Source: a virus
Taxonomy: Duplodnaviria > Heunggongvirae > Uroviricota > Caudoviricetes
Strand: one strand, 5' to 3'
Length of the DNA stretch: 64,000 bases
IMG/VR virus record: IMGVR_UViG_3300029736_000004
Below the pieces are notes generated by a model that saw nothing but the letters and a program-made list of their open reading frames with translations, was not told the DNA's origin and searched no databases. The first letter of the stretch is position 1; each line of letters opens with the position of its first letter. A program made the translations under genes and the position numbers. Below are positions 13,204 through 52,063 of the stretch, one piece after another.

Positions 13204-13911
13204 GTGAGTATTTTTAGTGCTACAACGCAAACGCTAGCCAGTGCGGTATCGTTTAGCGCGAAATCGTTCACCAGCAACCTTATCAGCGACATTCTGGATA
13301 GAGCGGTGTCTGGCAGTGGCGTTAGTGGGAGCTACGGCAATGACATCGCTTACGGAAAGAACGTAGTTGCTACGGCTATGCGTATCCGCTATGCCCAGGG
13401 CTGGCAGTGGACGGTAGACGTAGACGGATTAAGCGGCTTTGATATGTTCGTTAAGGACATCACTTACAGTAGCGGGAATATTGAAACAGAAAGCAAAATC
13501 ATTGGTAGCGTCGAGTTCAATAAGCCAACGCACGTAACCGCCGGACCGGTAACAATGACGGTCAGAGACACAGAAGACGGCAAAATAATGAATTGGTTCA
13601 AGGAGCGCCGCGCCCGTGTAACCAATAGCGATGGTACGCTAAACCTGCCGCCAGATTATCTCATGAATATCAGGCTATACCGCGTTACACAGGAAGGCGG
13701 GAAAGAGCTGGAAGAGGAAATGCGTGTATTTCCGACTCAGATAGGAGAGATCAGCCGCTCACGTGATCAGGTGTCCGAATTCTTGTCCTATCCGATCACG
13801 TTCCAGCGATACACATCTGCTGGTTCCGGCCTGTCCGCATTAGTCAATGGAGCTGCTGGTTTAGCAACAAGCGCACTTAAAAGCGCCGCCAGCAACGTGA
13901 TCAAGTTTTGA
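13204..13911 (+). CDS. hypothetical protein
   Basis: GGAGGG SD 4 nt before GTG 13204 (ORF track start 13174). Confidence 0.4.
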   Translation: MSIFSATTQTLASAVSFSAKSFTSNLISDILDRAVSGSGVSGSYGNDIAYGKNVVATAMRIRYAQGWQWTVDVDGLSGFDMFVKDITYSSGNIETESKIIGSVEFNKPTHVTAGPVTMTVRDTEDGKIMNWFKERRARVTNSDGTLNLPPDYLMNIRLYRVTQEGGKELEEEMRVFPTQIGEISRSRDQVSEFLSYPITFQRYTSAGSGLSALVNGAAGLATSALKSAASNVIKF

Positions 13912-13952
13912 AATGCAATATTAAAGTGCGAGAAGGAGAGGAAAGGACAAAC

Positions 13953-14245
13953 TTGAGGGCAATTTTTACACCAGCTATTTACACCAGTGATGGCATTTTT
14001 TACACACCACAACAAAATCAATGAGTTACATTCAAAAAACACTTAACAGGTGTGCTATAAAAATAGCTATAACATACGATGCTATCTGAGGGTGATTTTT
14101 ACACATTACTTATTAATCAATAAATTACAAATGATGTTAGCCGTTAAAGCTCCAACCAACTCACTAATGGTGTAAGAATTGCCCTCAATCTCCCATCTTT
14201 AAGGGCAAATCCTACACCTACAGAGAGGTGTAGAAATTGCCCTTA
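13953..14245. repeat. iteron cluster downstream of repA (inc/control-type locus)
   Basis: TGAGGGCAATTTTTACACC-type 19-bp repeats at 13953, 14087, 14200 plus inverted copies at 14169 and 14227. Confidence 0.6.
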
Positions 14246-14998
14246 AGACTGCTGATAGGTGAATTTTATTTTTGTAACTCTGCCACCTTCTGTAACCTCT
14301 GAGAAAACTATTTTCATTTTTGTGTTTTTTTCGATTTCAGCTACAGCTTTTGCCAGAAAGCTTCTCTTAAATTCGGCGTACCGTTGATAGCTTTTGGGAA
14401 GACCATAACGCTCCCGCATCCATTCAACGCCAAGTATAGCGAAGCCGCTCCCATCATCCTTTCTATACTGGCATAAGGACTCATAAAGCCGCATAGAATA
14501 AGGGTTTGTCAGGCGAGACACTTCAGTAAAATTCAGCCTCGTGAACCTCTTATCAAGCAGAGTAAAAAACGGCATGAGATATGGATTCAGATGAATAATG
14601 TAAGTCCCCCGGCGTGGTGAGTAAGCATCCTTAATCATCCAGGGATAAGACTCATAACTGTCTTCTGATTCGGTTGATTCATCAGGGTTATATATCGTGA
14701 CTTTCTTCTCACTAAGTCCGGAGATAGCTTTACGAATATCCTTGCTGGCTTCAGCAGAGGGCAAATTATACATCTCTGCATATTCGTTGACCGTCAACTC
14801 ACAGGCTCCTGAACCAAGAACGCCATCCTTAGAAGCATAGCGAAGTCTTCCCACCACAATAAACAACAGTCGCTTTTGGTCGCGTGTCAGGTGATAAGCC
14901 GCCTCTGTGATCTCATTGGCCTGCGCCAAGCTACGGCTAATTGGTGTCGCTGATTCAATCAGACTGACGGCTTTTGCCGTTAATTCCGCTCTGTTCAT
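14243..14998 (-). CDS. repA: iteron-binding replication initiator RepA
   Basis: 252 aa flanked on both sides by iterons; start set at ATG 14998 (MNRAELT) because the upstream ORF extension would be encoded by iteron sequence. Confidence 0.7.
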   Translation of the reverse strand: MNRAELTAKAVSLIESATPISRSLAQANEITEAAYHLTRDQKRLLFIVVGRLRYASKDGVLGSGACELTVNEYAEMYNLPSAEASKDIRKAISGLSEKKVTIYNPDESTESEDSYESYPWMIKDAYSPRRGTYIIHLNPYLMPFFTLLDKRFTRLNFTEVSRLTNPYSMRLYESLCQYRKDDGSGFAILGVEWMRERYGLPKSYQRYAEFKRSFLAKAVAEIEKNTKMKIVFSEVTEGGRVTKIKFTYQQS

Positions 14999-15020
14999 AA
15001 CCCTGTGTGATCCTTCAAAT

Positions 15021-15140
15021 GGTGAGGGCAATTTTTACATCACTTTGAGGGCAATTACTACACCTTTTGAGGGCAAATCTTACACCTGCTGAGGGCAAAT
15101 CTTACACCTCAATAGCTTAATTGAGGGCAAATCTTACACC
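15021..15140. repeat. origin iterons: five direct 19-bp repeats upstream of repA
   Basis: TGAGGGCAA(A/T)T(C/T)TTACACC at 15023, 15046, 15068, 15090, 15122; three spaced 22 bp apart. Confidence 0.7.
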
Positions 15141-15235
15141 TTGGTCCTCTACAAGCCCCGCCACACCTGACCTCCGCGATGCCTAAAAAGGATCTAAAAA
15201 GGATTAAAAAGAGAAAAAGGTTTATAAAAATACTC

Positions 15236-15244
15236 TGTGGATAT
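15236..15244 (-). promoter_or_regulatory. DnaA box in A-rich origin segment
   Basis: TGTGGATAT = ATATCCACA on the minus strand (8/9 to TTATCCACA) beside AAAAAGGATCTAAAAAGGATTAAAAAG; extra inverted iteron at 15262-15283. Confidence 0.4.
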
Positions 15245-15384
15245 GTGAATTGCGTCACTTAAGGTGTAAAAATCACCCTCAATAGTTGCTGTTCGATCGA
15301 CAAAGATCCTTATTCAATACTCCCACAAATCACACACTCCCTATCCTCTGAAAAACTAACTGAACCTAGCTTTCGGAGGAATCC

Positions 15385-16209
15385 TTGAACATTCCCAAAT
15401 TCCCATTGCCTTCACAGCCTGAAATGGAAATTCAGTTTCATGCACCTACTGTGAAAGATGCCCTGAAATATTCAGACATCAATCCGGCAGAAGACGAGGC
15501 AACCACAACAGAATACCTCAATGCCATGCAAGACGGCGAAATTAACGACAGCTCAAACTGGACAGTTCAGGATCGCAGAACCGCACTTTGGTGGATCTTT
15601 GTCAATTCCAGACCAGATGCCGTAATGACTTACTCATACGAGTGTGGTCACTGTGGAAGCGTTCATCACGCAGATATTAACCTTTCCGACCTTGCCGAAA
15701 CGGTAGAAATCCTGACTGTTCCGCCGTTTATTAAAACTATGGTCCCAATAAACGGAGTACCAACCGAGTGGACGCTTAAACCACTAACAGGGAAAGGCGC
15801 TGAATTGCTTGAGCGTATGCGCGCCACTCTGCCTGATATGAAAACTCCAGAGTACAGTGCTAAGGTTGCTCGTCTCCGCATAGCTGAGTTGGCCTTGTGT
15901 ACATCTCTGAACGACGATCCAGAAGACTTCACACAAGCTGCAAACAGACGATTCGATATCATTGAAAACATGGCACTGGAAACCGAGTTTACCCCTCTGG
16001 TAGCTCGCATTCAGCTCATGCAGAAAGACCTTCGCCACGGCTTAAAAATGGCTATTGAACGAGGCACAAGCCGCCTGATCCTACCGCCACAACGTTGCAA
16101 AAACGCTAAGGAGGGTGCAGACGTGACTACCACGCTGTACGCCCCATTTCTCAATAGAGAGTTTATCCCATCAATTAGATCTGAATGGATGGCTAACCAT
16201 TATCAATAA
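15385..16209 (+). CDS. hypothetical protein
   Basis: 274-aa ORF; TTG start with GGAGGA SD at optimal spacing. Confidence 0.5.
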   Translation: MNIPKFPLPSQPEMEIQFHAPTVKDALKYSDINPAEDEATTTEYLNAMQDGEINDSSNWTVQDRRTALWWIFVNSRPDAVMTYSYECGHCGSVHHADINLSDLAETVEILTVPPFIKTMVPINGVPTEWTLKPLTGKGAELLERMRATLPDMKTPEYSAKVARLRIAELALCTSLNDDPEDFTQAANRRFDIIENMALETEFTPLVARIQLMQKDLRHGLKMAIERGTSRLILPPQRCKNAKEGADVTTTLYAPFLNREFIPSIRSEWMANHYQ

Positions 16210-37514: not shown

Positions 37515-37599
37515 CAAGAATGTATGATTTATATCGTCACTAAAAAACAGCATCTGATAAAAATTCTGTTGATCTTTCTAATGTTCAGGCTTATATTCA

Positions 37600-37830
37600 T
37601 GCCGTCGTAGCAAATTCTGCGACCGGGTTTAGCAGCCTGAATGTTAGTGCGGACAACCGCAGATATCCGATATTGCGGTATTTTTGTGTCCGTAAAACCG
37701 CGTTACGCCCAAATTATGGTGGGGCGTGATGGGGAGGCTTCGGCCTGCTGGTTTCACTAACGCCAGTCTGCTAACCCCGTCACGTCCTGCCACCTGTTTA
37801 GCAGCGGGTAGCAGGTTGTTAAACCTGTTA
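37600..37830 (+). ncRNA. candidate c4-like antisense RNA / structured leader
   Basis: TTTAGCAGC at 37628 and 37798 is complementary to CTGCTAA at 37768; GAGGCTTCGGCCTGC tetraloop hairpin; lies upstream of icd-like and Rha-family genes. Confidence 0.3.
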
Positions 37831-51034: not shown

Positions 51035-51111
51035 GATGGTGTAGCTCAGTAGGATAGAGCAGCAGCCTTCTAAGCTGTCGGTCGGTGGTTCGAATCCACC
51101 CACCATCGCCA
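51035..51111 (+). tRNA. tRNA-Arg (anticodon TCT)
   Basis: Cloverleaf: acceptor GATGGTG/CACCATC, D-arm TAGCTCAGTAGGATAGAGC, anticodon loop CTTCTAA, T-arm GGTGGTTCGAATCCACC, CCA end. Confidence 0.85.
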
Positions 51112-51116
51112 ATTTA

Positions 51117-51203
51117 GGGGAGTTAGTCCGTAGGGGTAGCGGGGTAGACTGTAAATCTACTGTCATTGCGACTCGGATGGTTCGACTCCATCACTCCCCA
51201 CCA
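51117..51203 (+). tRNA. tRNA-Tyr (anticodon GTA)
   Basis: Acceptor GGGGAGT/ACTCCCC, anticodon stem-loop GTAGA-CTGTAAA-TCTAC, long variable arm, T-loop TTCGACT, CCA. Confidence 0.8.
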
Positions 51204-51207
51204 AATT

Positions 51208-51283
51208 GCCGGTTTAGCTCAGTTGGTAGAGCAGTCGCTTTGTAAGCGAATGGTCAGCGGTTCGATCCCGTTAACCGGCACCA
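51208..51283 (+). tRNA. tRNA-Thr (anticodon TGT)
   Basis: Acceptor GCCGGTT/AACCGGC, D-arm GCTCAGTTGGTAGAGC, anticodon loop TTTGTAA, T-loop TTCGATC, CCA. Confidence 0.8.
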
Positions 51284-51296
51284 ACACAACAGGTAA

Positions 51297-51361
51297 GGGT
51301 ATTTTGCGACATCGGAGATCGCCGAGCTTGGCAGAGGGTTCGAATCCCTACGAAGTACCCT
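51297..51361 (+). other. tRNA-like element lacking a canonical anticodon arm (possible degenerate tRNA)
   Basis: Acceptor-like GGGTATT/AGTACCC, D-arm-like GCGA...TCGC, T-arm GAGGGTTCGAATCCCTA, but only 11 nt between D and T arms; extended outer stem CACAACAGGTAAGGG/CCCTTGCCGTTGTG. Confidence 0.25.
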
Positions 51362-51471
51362 TGCCGTTGTGATGAATGCACAGGCTGATGTGCCGCAACT
51401 ACAGTAGTGCGCGCTTTGCGGGGCTTGCTACAACCCTGTGTCGGAGTTCAGCACCGACCATCACAATCACT

Positions 51472-51558
51472 GGAGAGTAGGGAGCATGGTGCTCAAGCGG
51501 TCTTGAAAACCGTCCCATTGCGCAAGCGATGATGGTTCGATTCCATTACTCTCCGCCA
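51472..51558 (+). tRNA. tRNA-Ser (anticodon TGA)
   Basis: Acceptor GGAGAGT/ACTCTCC, anticodon stem-loop GCGGT-CTTGAAA-ACCGT, long variable arm, T-arm GATGGTTCGATTCCATT, CCA. Confidence 0.8.
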
Positions 51559-51849
51559 GCGCAACGTTAAGAGTATTTGGCTAATTAAGCGAATGCCGGA
51601 AGCAGAACCGGATCACCAAATGCGTACAGGCGTCATCGCCGCCCAGTCAGCCAAATGCTCTTACCATTGCGGTGAATGCGGCTAAGCGCACGCGGAACAG
51701 TTAAAACAGTAAAGGTGGTCTTTTTACTGGCGTAACGAGCATCCATAAGTGATCCGGCGTTAATTGTTAACTGGTTAACGTCACCGGGAGGCACCCGGCA
51801 CCGCAACCTAACAGCAATGGCGTTTTGTCTTAAAAGGTGGCTGCAAGTG

Positions 51850-51978
51850 ATGGATTTTTGGGCGTTTGCCGATAAAAACCCGGAGTGGACATTATTGTTT
51901 CTGCTGGTGGTTGCATACGGGGTAGAGCAAGCGGCAAAAGCCTTACGCGGTTCTGGCAAAAAGCGTAAGCGTAATTAA
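51850..51978 (+). CDS. small hydrophobic ORF (42 aa) between tRNA genes
   Basis: MDFWAFADKNPEWTLLFLLVVAYGVEQAAKALRGSGKKRKRN; not in the ORF track (under 60 aa); AAAGGTGG upstream. Confidence 0.25.
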   Translation: MDFWAFADKNPEWTLLFLLVVAYGVEQAAKALRGSGKKRKRN

Positions 51979-51987
51979 CAGTAATCT

Positions 51988-52063
51988 GGCCCTTTAGCTC
52001 AGTGGTTAGAGCGGGCGACTCATAATCGCACGGTCACCGGTTCAAGTCCGGTAGGGGCCACCA
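51988..52063 (+). tRNA. tRNA-Ile2-like (anticodon CAT; Met not excluded)
   Basis: GGCCCTTTAGCTCAGTGGTTAGAGCGGGCGACTCATAATCGC...GGTTCAAGTCCGGTAGGGGCCACCA closely resembles E. coli ileX-type tRNA (recalled). Confidence 0.8.

What the first reader, a model, noticed from the sequence alone, without database searches (positions are those of the whole stretch)
13953..15283. Iteron replicon with direct and inverted 19-bp iterons on both sides of repA
Five direct TGAGGGCAA(A/T)T(C/T)TTACACC iterons (three at 22-bp spacing) lie upstream of repA and overlap its promoter region, followed by an A-rich segment with GATC sites and a DnaA-box-like ATATCCACA. A second set, including inverted copies, lies downstream and overlaps the repA stop. 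This resembles the origin-plus-control-locus layout of F/P1-type replicons, but the iteron sequence and RepA differ from P1 RepA as I recall it.
Basis: partly seen in the sequence, partly recalled or inferred. Interest (0 to 1): 0.45.

Follow-up and report, generated by a model that had tools for sequence, protein, structure and literature searches.

The report
Plasmid replication origin of D6-like phage
This is the low-copy plasmid replication module (initiator gene flanked by its repeated binding sites) of a D6-like phage-plasmid; it is related to the F-plasmid RepE/ori2 replicon rather than to P1 RepA, and it is already annotated in databases and mentioned in the literature, so it is real but ordinary.

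Summary
A position-weight scan finds 13 copies of the 19-bp repeat TGAGGGCAA(A/T)T(C/T)TTACACC in the 64-kb window, all within 13954-15281. The layout is:
- five direct copies just upstream of repA (minus strand, 14243-14998);
- one inverted copy beyond a DnaA box and an A/T-rich block;
- six copies downstream in mixed orientation, one overlapping the stop codon;
- one weak copy inside the gene.

All 13 keep position and orientation in seven relatives, although the downstream spacers have diverged.

The interpretation needs one correction. RepA is 50% identical to F-plasmid RepE and shows no detectable pairwise similarity to P1 RepA. The DnaA-box/AT-rich core aligns with F ori2.

It differs from F in several ways:
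- there is no room for the RepE operator, because the last iteron ends 24 nt before the ATG;
- there is an extra inverted iteron beyond the DnaA box;
- the downstream locus has mixed orientation, as in P1 incA;
- that locus holds two conserved perfect IHF consensus sites.

The window is a D6-like (P1-g2) phage-plasmid: 99.8% identical to an Escherichia marmotae plasmid and 90.6% to phage D6. The gene is already annotated as a replication initiator, and iterons have been noted for a D6-like plasmid. Function is inferred by homology. Interest is low.

The parts
14243..14998 (-). repA, 251-aa iteron-binding initiator (WH1+WH2); an F RepE homologue
   Evidence: Pfam Rep3_N 3.8e-29 and Rep3_C 2.7e-15. 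50% identical to F RepE over 228 aa, E 3e-86. PDB RepE chains match at about 1e-73. 98.8% identical to the phage D6 orf42 protein.
15023..15140 (+). Origin iteron array: five direct 19-bp iterons at 15023-41, 15046-64, 15068-86, 15090-108 and 15122-40. It ends 24 nt before the repA ATG; the repA promoter is inferred to lie within it.
   Evidence: PWM scores 29-32 bits. 98% of iteron columns are invariant in 7 relatives. Same orientation relative to rep as the F ori2 iterons.
15141..15183 (.). G+C-rich spacer between the A/T-rich block and the iterons
   Evidence: 35% A+T. Partly conserved; F ori2 also has a spacer between its AT-rich block and its iterons, where the two sequences share only scattered identities.
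15184..15235 (.). A/T-rich block with five phased A5 tracts and a single GATC (15191); the presumed DNA unwinding element
   Evidence: 79% A+T. Nearly invariant in 7 relatives. Aligns with the F ori2 blocks TATTTTTATAA and TTTTTAGATC.
15236..15244 (-). DnaA box ATATCCACA (8/9 match to TTATCCACA)
   Evidence: position. Invariant in relatives. Aligns with the second DnaA box of F ori2.
15263..15281 (-). Single iteron in inverted orientation on the far side of the DnaA box, so that iterons bracket the DnaA box and A/T-rich block
   Evidence: 28.9 bits. Identical in all 7 relatives. No counterpart in F. The 72%-identity relative L014 has three iteron-like copies (one in the pattern scan, two read from the printed sequence) at the same place.
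14199..14246 (.). Two iterons (14200-14218 +, 14227-14245 -) forming a 21-nt-arm palindrome that covers the repA stop codon
   Evidence: Inverted repeat I13, 90% complementary. Arms conserved while the 6-8 nt spacer varies. Folds as RNA at -35.2 kcal/mol, z -6.0, but no U-tract follows.
14169..14187 (-). Downstream iteron, inverted relative to the origin array
   Evidence: 33 bits; conserved in position and orientation.
14115..14127 (+). IHF consensus AATCAATAAATTA (WATCAANNNNTTR)
   Evidence: Perfect match; only 6 in the window. Perfect consensus in 5 of the 7 aligned sequences and one mismatch (TTTCAA) in L006/L007, within a spacer that is otherwise 26% invariant.
14087..14105 (+). Downstream iteron, same orientation as the origin array
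   Evidence: 25.7 bits; conserved.
14016..14028 (+). IHF consensus AATCAATGAGTTA
   Evidence: Perfect match; the consensus positions are kept in all 7 relatives.
13988..14006 (+). Degenerate downstream iteron TGATGGCATTTTTTACACA
   Evidence: 18.9 bits. Present at the same place in all relatives at 13-19 bits.
13954..13972 (+). Outermost downstream iteron
   Evidence: 33 bits; conserved.
14756..14774 (+). Iteron-like site inside repA (AGAGGGCAAATTATACATC), same orientation as the origin array; function uncertain
   Evidence: 18.2 bits. It overlaps (17 of 19 nt) the most nucleotide-conserved 19-mer of the gene (14754-14772) across four lineages at 57-72% protein identity: 16/19 against 46% overall, with codons TAT, AAT and CCC identical. 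Absent in the 79% relative L012 and in F.

Best explanation
This is the theta-type, iteron-controlled replicon that maintains a D6-like (P1-g2) phage as a low-copy plasmid prophage.

Initiation (inferred by homology to F ori2/RepE):
- RepA is a two-winged-helix initiator of the F RepE lineage. As a monomer it binds the five direct 19-bp iterons next to its own gene.
- Together with host DnaA at the adjacent DnaA box, it opens the phased-A-tract A/T-rich block so that the host helicase can be loaded.

Autoregulation (inferred):
- The array ends 24 nt before the ATG, which leaves no room for an F-type inverted-repeat operator.
- The repA promoter most likely lies inside the array, so RepA bound to the iterons would repress its own gene, as in P1.

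Copy-number control (inferred):
- The six iterons downstream of repA act as a copy-control and incompatibility locus, equivalent to F incC and P1 incA.
- They would work by titrating RepA and by pairing (looping or handcuffing) with origin iterons.
- The two conserved IHF consensus sites between them probably fold this locus into a compact complex.

What is shown and what is not: the sequence homology, the site map and their evolutionary conservation are shown. Binding, origin firing, autorepression, handcuffing and the IHF role are inferred.
For: Site map and conservation:
- There are 13 iteron sites and none elsewhere in 64 kb.
- All keep position and orientation in seven D6-like elements.
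- In the downstream intergenic region 82% of iteron columns are invariant, against 26% of other columns. Upstream the figures are 98% against 69%.

Initiator:
- RepA has Rep3_N and Rep3_C domains.
- It is 50% identical to F RepE and matches the solved RepE-iteron and RepE-operator structures at about 1e-73.
- The iteron half TGAGGGCAA is identical to the F iteron, and the WH1 recognition helix EASKDIR is invariant. The other half differs, and WH2 is more diverged (41% against 51% identity). The review PMC4980987 assigns the GTG/GtCA half to WH2.

Origin:
- The DnaA box and A/T-rich block align with F ori2.

Distribution:
- The same layout recurs in relatives at 57-79% protein identity.
- MOB-suite types these plasmids by this replicon (rep_cluster_1704); it is the only replicon type given for six of the seven fetched records, and one also carries IncFIA.

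Background on the model systems:
- The roles of ori2, the operator and incC in F are summarised in PMC13028717.
- The P1 layout comes from the annotated record.
Against: - Nothing here is experimental.
- No sigma-70 consensus promoter for repA was found on the minus strand, so the 'promoter within the iterons' step is a deduction from lack of space.
- RepA scores below the NCBIfam RepE equivalog cut-off (281 against 342 bits), so details of RepE biology such as the dimer/monomer switch may not carry over. The residue equivalent to RepE R118 is Asp.
- IHF mutations do not affect F replication (PMC4980987), so an IHF role is not predicted by the F model.
- The second IHF site also overlaps a conserved promoter-like element.
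Confidence: 0.85

Rival explanations
1. It is a P1-type (IncY) RepA/oriR/incA replicon, as might be expected in a P1-related phage.
For: The host element is P1-related. The layout of five origin iterons, rep, then a downstream mixed-orientation cluster whose first iteron touches the stop codon resembles P1.
Against: - RepA against P1 RepA gives E 0.056, with no meaningful alignment.
- There are no P1 iterons in the window.
- There is one GATC in the A/T-rich block rather than P1's five.
- RepA is 50% identical to F RepE instead.
Confidence: 0.02
2. Only the upstream array is functional; the downstream copies are decaying duplicates with no role.
For: Two downstream copies are weak (13988 at 18.9 bits; 14087 at 25.7 bits). 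Spacing is irregular. The number and orientation of downstream copies differ greatly between distant relatives, from 1 to at least 13.
Against: All six keep position and orientation across D6-like elements. Meanwhile the spacers have diverged so far that megablast no longer aligns them. Column invariance is 82% in iterons against 26% outside them. The F and P1 counterparts are proven control loci.
Confidence: 0.07
3. The conserved ATCAAT..TTA motifs downstream are not IHF sites. They are the -10 parts of RepA-repressible promoters (-35 TTTACA inside an iteron, 17-bp spacer) that send antisense transcripts into repA.
For: The scan finds TTTACA-17-TAAATT on the + strand at 14098-14126. The -35 hexamer, the 17-bp spacing and a TAnnTT hexamer are kept in relatives (read from the alignment).
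Against: - The match is only 9 of 12 positions, a quality expected about 3 times by chance in this region.
- The first motif does not keep the TA in all relatives.
- Two perfect IHF consensus sites 99 bp apart are unlikely by chance, with 3.2 expected in 128 kb of strand.
- The two readings are not exclusive.
Confidence: 0.15
4. The palindrome over the stop codon acts mainly as an RNA hairpin (3' end stabiliser or terminator of repA mRNA, or a barrier to late transcription entering from the tail genes) rather than as two RepA sites.
For: It predicts a 20-bp stem at -35.2 kcal/mol with z -6.0. It sits exactly at the 3' end of the gene.
Against: No U-tract follows on either strand. Each arm is a full iteron. 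The arms vary independently in the variable iteron centre among relatives, with no compensatory pattern. P1 and F also place an iteron at or next to the stop codon without any palindrome.
Confidence: 0.15

Closest known systems
Phage D6 plasmid replicon (orf42 'replication initiation protein'; D6-like / P1-g2 phage-plasmids; MOB-suite rep_cluster_1704)
   Same: - RepA is 98.8% identical.
- Nucleotide identity is 90.6% over 14171-15350.
- The same 13 sites occur at the same positions.
- The location is the same, between the tub-like and pmgB-like tail genes and on the opposite strand.
- The closest record is an E. marmotae plasmid at 99.8%.
   Different: The outer 270 bp of the downstream locus (13900-14170) has diverged beyond megablast detection except at the iterons and IHF motifs. 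This allele of that segment is shared by only seven plasmid records at 95% identity or more.
F plasmid ori2(oriS)/repE/incC (RepFIA)
   Same: - The initiator is homologous: 50% identity, and both are 251 aa.
- Both use 19-bp iterons at about 22-bp phasing that share the TGAGGGCAA half.
- The DnaA box and A/T-rich block are homologous.
- Both have an iteron cluster downstream of rep.
   Different: - Five rather than four origin iterons.
- No roughly 100-bp promoter/operator region with the TGTGACAA inverted repeat.
- One good DnaA box rather than two.
- An extra inverted iteron beyond the DnaA box.
- The second iteron half is GGTGTAAGAT rather than TGTGACAAAT, with GTG one base further from TTGCCCTCA.
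- The downstream copies are of mixed orientation, whereas F's are all inverted.
- Two IHF consensus sites in the downstream locus.
- RepA falls below the NCBIfam RepE equivalog cut-off.
Phage P1 oriR/repA/incA (IncY)
   Same: - Both are plasmid-prophage maintenance replicons with five origin iterons abutting rep.
- In P1 the promoter is nested in the iterons; here that is inferred.
- Both have a downstream cluster of mixed orientation (P1 has 3 direct and 6 inverted) whose first iteron touches the stop codon.
   Different: The initiator is unrelated at the level of pairwise sequence comparison. The iteron sequence is different. There is no cluster of five GATC sites. In P1 the partition genes are adjacent, whereas in the D6 subgroup they lie elsewhere (PMC7969092).

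Membership tests
Iteron-type Rep3 (winged-helix) theta replicons | Initiator with WH1 (Rep3_N) and WH2 (Rep3_C) domains | tested here: met
   Pfam E 3.8e-29 and 2.7e-15, both above the gathering cut-offs.
Iteron-type Rep3 (winged-helix) theta replicons | Array of directly repeated 17-22 bp sites next to the rep gene, helically phased | tested here: met
   Five 19-mers at 22-23 bp spacing (one gap of 32 bp). 8 matches against 0.03 expected.
Iteron-type Rep3 (winged-helix) theta replicons | Autonomous, Rep-dependent replication and iteron-mediated incompatibility | not testable with these tools
   Requires cloning and copy-number or incompatibility assays.
F ori2/RepE (RepFIA) replicon | Initiator orthologous to RepE | tested here: inconclusive
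   It is a clear homologue (50% identity, E 3e-86; PDB matches). However, the NCBIfam RepE equivalog score of 281 is below the 342 cut-off. D6-type proteins form a separate cluster: at least 95% identity within it, about 51% to RepE, and few intermediates.
F ori2/RepE (RepFIA) replicon | F iteron sequence TGTGACAAATTGCCCTCA (determines IncFIA specificity) | tested here: not met
   Only the TTGCCCTCA half is shared. The other half is GGTGTAAGAT, with GTG shifted by one base.
F ori2/RepE (RepFIA) replicon | DnaA boxes and A/T-rich 13-mer region upstream of the iterons | tested here: met
   The pairwise alignment shows the shared blocks CACnTATCCAC, TATTTTTATAA and TTTTTAGATC. Only one good DnaA box is present, not two.
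F ori2/RepE (RepFIA) replicon | Inverted-repeat operator (half-iteron arms) between the iterons and repE, for dimer autorepression | tested here: not met
   Only 24 nt separate the last iteron from the ATG, against 97 nt in F. No local inverted repeat occurs there. Relatives at 57-79% identity show the same.
F ori2/RepE (RepFIA) replicon | incC: iteron cluster downstream of rep, all inverted relative to ori2 | tested here: inconclusive
   A cluster is present and conserved, but only 2 of its 6 copies are inverted.
P1 oriR/RepA (IncY) replicon | P1 RepA homologue and P1 iteron GATGTGTGCTGGAGGGAAA | tested here: not met
   BLASTP E 0.056. 0 iteron matches at up to 3 mismatches.
P1 oriR/RepA (IncY) replicon | Cluster of five GATC sites in the A/T-rich region | tested here: not met
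   One GATC lies in 15184-15235, and the regional density equals the window average.
D6-like (P1-g2) phage-plasmid replicon | Near-identical RepA and the same site map, located between the tub-like and pmgB-like tail genes of a P1-related genome | tested here: met
   98.8% protein identity and 90.6% nucleotide identity to D6. Gene neighbours are identical. The window also carries P1-type C4 RNA, repL, pac and tail genes.

The most novel reading that the evidence does not exclude
The D6-type replicons, together with their relatives at 57-79% identity, may form a distinct RepE sub-lineage that has given up F's dimer/operator autorepression. The promoter would instead be buried in the iteron array, as in P1. 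Further control elements not described for F or P1 would be:
- an iteron on the far side of the DnaA box;
- an IHF-folded, mixed-orientation control locus;
- a conserved iteron-like RepA site inside the rep coding sequence.
Probability: 0.3. Interest if true: 0.35.

Novelty: already known. Interest (0 to 1): 0.2.

Why it matters
D6-like phage-plasmids are widespread at low frequency in E. coli, Shigella and Salmonella. According to a 2025 survey (bioRxiv 10.1101/2025.09.12.675607), the common plasmid-typing tools do not include their replication gene.

Two points follow from this analysis:
- The replicon is an F RepE relative with its own iteron specificity, which helps typing and predicts compatibility with P1/IncY and probably with IncFIA plasmids.
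- The precise site map gives a ready design for mini-replicon, copy-number and incompatibility experiments.

Beyond that, it is a standard iteron replicon and opens no new question.

Tried and rejected
- **repA promoter.** I looked for a sigma-70 promoter with the consensus scan and found none on the minus strand. Hand inspection gave only a weak extended -10 (TGTAAAAAT, 15030-15038, minus strand).
- **P1 late promoter.** I compared 15284-15385 with the -22 box of P1 late promoters (AAGTGACTT type). There was no convincing match before pmgB.
- **GATC enrichment.** Not enriched.
- **DnaA box significance from sequence alone.** Not significant. It is accepted only because of conservation and its alignment to F.
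- **P1 iterons in the window.** None.
- **Known RNA families.** Rfam found none in the replicon region; hits elsewhere were only C4 RNA and tRNAs.
- **The D6 genome paper** (Gilcrease and Casjens 2018, PMC5800970). It could not be opened, so I cannot say how much of the layout it already describes.
- **Hairpin reading of the stop-codon palindrome.** Considered secondary (together with the arm variation).
- **Co-occurrence of D6-type and IncFIA plasmids in single genomes.** Not attempted, because the tools list too few rows to cross-match.
Full report
**What is there**

The only long ORF in 13953-15283 is on the minus strand: 14243-14998, 251 aa from the ATG. It has both winged-helix domains of iteron-binding initiators, Rep3_N (3.8e-29) and Rep3_C (2.7e-15).

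The 19-mer TGAGGGCAAATCTTACACC with up to 3 mismatches occurs 8 times, against 0.03 expected. A weight matrix built from 11 copies finds 13 sites of at least 10 bits. Every one lies between 13954 and 15281, and none lies elsewhere in the 64 kb. Shuffled sequence gives 0-3 hits at the 10-bit threshold (scores not recorded).

Read in the sense of repA (5' to 3' on the minus strand), the order is:
- an iteron in 'inverted' orientation (15281-15263);
- a DnaA box ATATCCACA (15244-15236);
- a 52-bp block of 79% A+T with five A5/T5 tracts spaced 8-12 bp (mean ~10) and one GATC (15235-15184);
- a 43-bp G+C-rich spacer;
- five direct iterons (15140-15023; spacings 32, 22, 22 and 23 bp);
- 24 nt containing a GGG Shine-Dalgarno-like motif;
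- repA;
- an iteron covering the stop codon (14245-14227), which with the next one (14218-14200) forms a palindrome with 21-nt arms;
- a third iteron (14187-14169);
- an IHF consensus site (14127-14115);
- an iteron (14105-14087);
- a second IHF consensus site (14028-14016);
- a degenerate iteron (14006-13988);
- a last iteron (13972-13954).

A weak iteron-like site lies inside the gene (14756-14774).

The one exception is that the 'GATC sites' are not an enrichment: one lies in the A-rich block, and the regional density equals the window average.

**More than chance: conservation**

The window belongs to a D6-like phage-plasmid. Region 13900-15350 is 99.8% identical to plasmids of Escherichia marmotae and 90.6% identical (from 14171 onward) to phage D6. 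It matches 111 plasmid records, mostly about 90 kb (74-96 kb among the full-length matches listed; one listed partial-match record is a 169-kb plasmid), nearly all typed non-mobilizable, from Escherichia, Shigella and Salmonella.

I mapped the sites in seven relatives besides the window (an E. marmotae plasmid 99.8% identical to it, phage D6 and five further plasmids). All 13 sites keep their position and orientation. I aligned six of them with the window, seven sequences in all; in that alignment:
- downstream of the gene, 82% of iteron columns are invariant against 26% of the other intergenic columns;
- upstream, the figures are 98% against 69%.

The outer downstream segment has diverged so far that megablast no longer aligns it. 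Even so, the iterons and two short motifs stand out as islands. Those motifs are perfect matches to the IHF consensus WATCAANNNNTTR: six in the whole window, 3.2 expected, and two of them here 99 bp apart. The DnaA box is not significant on its own, but it is invariant in the relatives.

**What the initiator is**

RepA is 50% identical over 228 residues to F-plasmid RepE (E 3e-86), and both are 251 aa long. It matches the solved RepE-iteron and RepE-operator structures at about 1e-73.

Against P1 RepA the best BLASTP E-value is 0.056. P1 iterons are absent from the window.

It is not the same orthologous group, however. The NCBIfam RepE equivalog model scores 281 bits against a cut-off of 342. 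In the plasmid collection the D6-type proteins (95% identity or more) are separated from the RepE proteins (about 51%) by an almost empty gap.

**Comparison with F ori2**

Both replicons share these features:
- In F the order is two DnaA boxes, an A/T-rich region, a spacer, four iterons TGTGACAAATTGCCCTCA, a roughly 100-bp promoter/operator with the inverted repeat AGTGTGACAA-9-TTGTCACACT, repE, and five incC iterons all inverted relative to ori2.
- The window's DnaA box and A/T-rich block align with F's (CACnTATCCAC, TATTTTTATAA, TTTTTAGATC).
- The iteron half TTGCCCTCA is identical.

The other iteron half differs. It is GGTGTAAGAT rather than TGTGACAAAT, and the GTG sits one base further from TTGCCCTCA.

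A review of Rep proteins assigns the GTG/GtCA contacts of the F iteron to WH2 (PMC4980987). This fits the protein comparison:
- the WH1 recognition helix EASKDIR is invariant between F, the window and relatives down to 57% identity;
- WH2 is more diverged (41% against 51% identity to F), and its helix reads EFKRSFLAKA rather than DFRRRFLQVC.

This argues for a separate iteron specificity, and hence probably a separate incompatibility group. That step is an inference.

**Differences in control layout**

- The last iteron ends 24 nt before the ATG, compared with 97 nt in F. No local inverted repeat is present, so the F-type operator bound by RepE dimers (PMC13028717) is absent.
- The consensus scan finds no sigma-70 promoter on the minus strand. 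The promoter must therefore lie within or upstream of the array, as in P1, where PrepA is annotated inside the iterons. The best candidate I can see is an extended -10, TGTAAAAAT, in the proximal iteron. This is weak and unverified.
- One iteron lies on the far side of the DnaA box. F has none there.
- The downstream set is of mixed orientation: two copies inverted and four direct relative to the origin. This resembles P1 incA (three direct, six inverted by my reading of the annotated sites) more than F incC.
- There are two IHF consensus sites. IHF is reported to be dispensable for F (PMC4980987).

**Wider family**

A protein search found intermediates at 79, 72, 64 and 57% identity. I read their loci. 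All four have DnaA box(es), the same A/T-rich block, a G+C spacer, five or six iterons (G/A)TGTAGAAATTGCCCTCA ending 20-43 nt before the start codon, and an opposite-orientation iteron at or next to the stop codon. The number of further downstream copies ranges from one to at least thirteen. The 'no operator' layout is thus a trait of a sub-lineage, not an accident of this window.

Three of the four also keep the intragenic iteron-like site. Across four lineages a 19-mer overlapping it by 17 nt (14754-14772) is the most nucleotide-conserved 19-mer of the gene (16/19 identical against 46% overall), with identical TAT, AAT and CCC codons, where only 14.5% of conserved degenerate residues share a codon. 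The 79% relative and F lack it, so I treat it as suggestive only.

**How it most likely works**

By homology with F and other Rep3 replicons:
- RepA monomers bind the five origin iterons.
- DnaA binds its box.
- The intrinsically bent A/T-rich block between them melts, and the host replisome is loaded.
- RepA on the proximal iterons represses its own promoter.
- The downstream iterons lower copy number by sequestering RepA and pairing with the origin, with IHF bends compacting the locus.

What is shown: homology, the site map and purifying selection on the sites. What is inferred: every biochemical step.

Alternative readings:
- The stop-codon palindrome predicts a strong RNA hairpin (-35.2 kcal/mol, z -6.0). 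However, it has no U-tract, and its arms vary independently in the variable iteron centre among relatives. Two protein sites are the better reading.
- The second IHF motif overlaps a conserved promoter-like TTTACA-17-TAnnTT that would read antisense into repA. I cannot exclude this.

**Context and novelty**

The replicon lies on the opposite strand between a tub-like tail-tube gene and pmgB/sit-like genes, exactly as in D6. There it is annotated 'replication initiation protein ... putative plasmid replication initiation'.

The rest of the window carries P1-type functions: repL, the C4 antisense RNA, pacA/B, a DarB-like SNF2 protein, an invertible tail-fibre region and a tRNA cluster.

The literature already covers the main points:
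- D6-like elements are classed as the P1-g2 subgroup, with replication and partition genes separated (PMC7969092).
- A 2025 survey notes that typing tools lack the D6 replication gene.

I could not open the D6 genome paper.

The finding is real and correctly read, but it concerns an already catalogued replicon of a well-understood kind. The F RepE affiliation, the missing operator, the IHF sites and the intragenic site are refinements worth a mini-replicon experiment, not a surprise.

Noticed in passing
window 14756-14774 (inside repA): An iteron-like 19-mer lies in the same orientation as the origin array. It overlaps (17 of 19 nt) the most nucleotide-conserved 19-mer of rep (14754-14772) across lineages at 57-72% protein identity, including synonymous positions. 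It is missing from the 79% relative L012 and from F repE.
   Followed up: partly
L012 2660-2740 and 3830-4270 (ENA ERZ15184914 NODE_74, 87 kb; RepA 79% identical): Seven P1-RepA-type iterons (GTGTGCGCTGGAGGGAA; 0.03 expected) are interleaved with RepE-type iterons in a roughly 180-bp repeating unit around a RepE-type rep gene. This could be a dual-specificity control locus or a device exerting incompatibility against P1. The rest of the contig was not examined.
   Followed up: partly
window 14098-14126 (+): A promoter-like TTTACA-17-TAAATT has its -35 inside iteron 14087-14105 and its -10 inside the second IHF consensus. The spacing and a TAnnTT hexamer are conserved in relatives. It would transcribe antisense into repA.
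   Followed up: partly
window 15335-15358: The block AAATCACACACTCCCTATCCTC (15335-15356) is invariant in the seven aligned D6-like sequences, about 30 nt upstream of the pmgB-like TTG start (15385). It does not resemble the -22 box of P1 late promoters. Its function is unknown.
   Followed up: partly
window RepA residue 124 (codon at 14627-14629): The residue aligned with F RepE R118 (whose R118P change makes RepE monomeric and raises copy number) is Asp in the D6 group and L012, and Lys or Arg in more distant relatives. Its meaning for dimerisation is unknown.
   Followed up: no
window 37591-37643 and 37712-37797 (+): Rfam finds the P1-type C4 antisense RNA (70 bits) and its a1/b1 target element (53.9 bits), which is the immI immunity region of P1-like phages.
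   Followed up: no
window 51035-52063 (+): A cluster of five tRNA genes: Arg-TCT, Tyr-GTA, Thr-TGT, Ser-TGA and Met-CAT.
   Followed up: no
L006 = NZ_CP091837.1 (76-kb E. coli plasmid): MOB-suite types this D6-like plasmid as both IncFIA and rep_cluster_1704. I did not check whether it carries a true F-type repE in addition, which would be a natural co-residence of the two iteron sets.
   Followed up: no
plasmid collection: A single Pantoea record matches the replicon at 60-80% nucleotide identity. I did not inspect it.
   Followed up: no
L008 = NZ_MK356558.1 (169-kb Salmonella plasmid): This record carries a truncated copy of the D6-type rep gene (annotated CDS 390 nt) with only two degraded iterons. 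It looks like a replicon remnant inside a larger plasmid.
   Followed up: no
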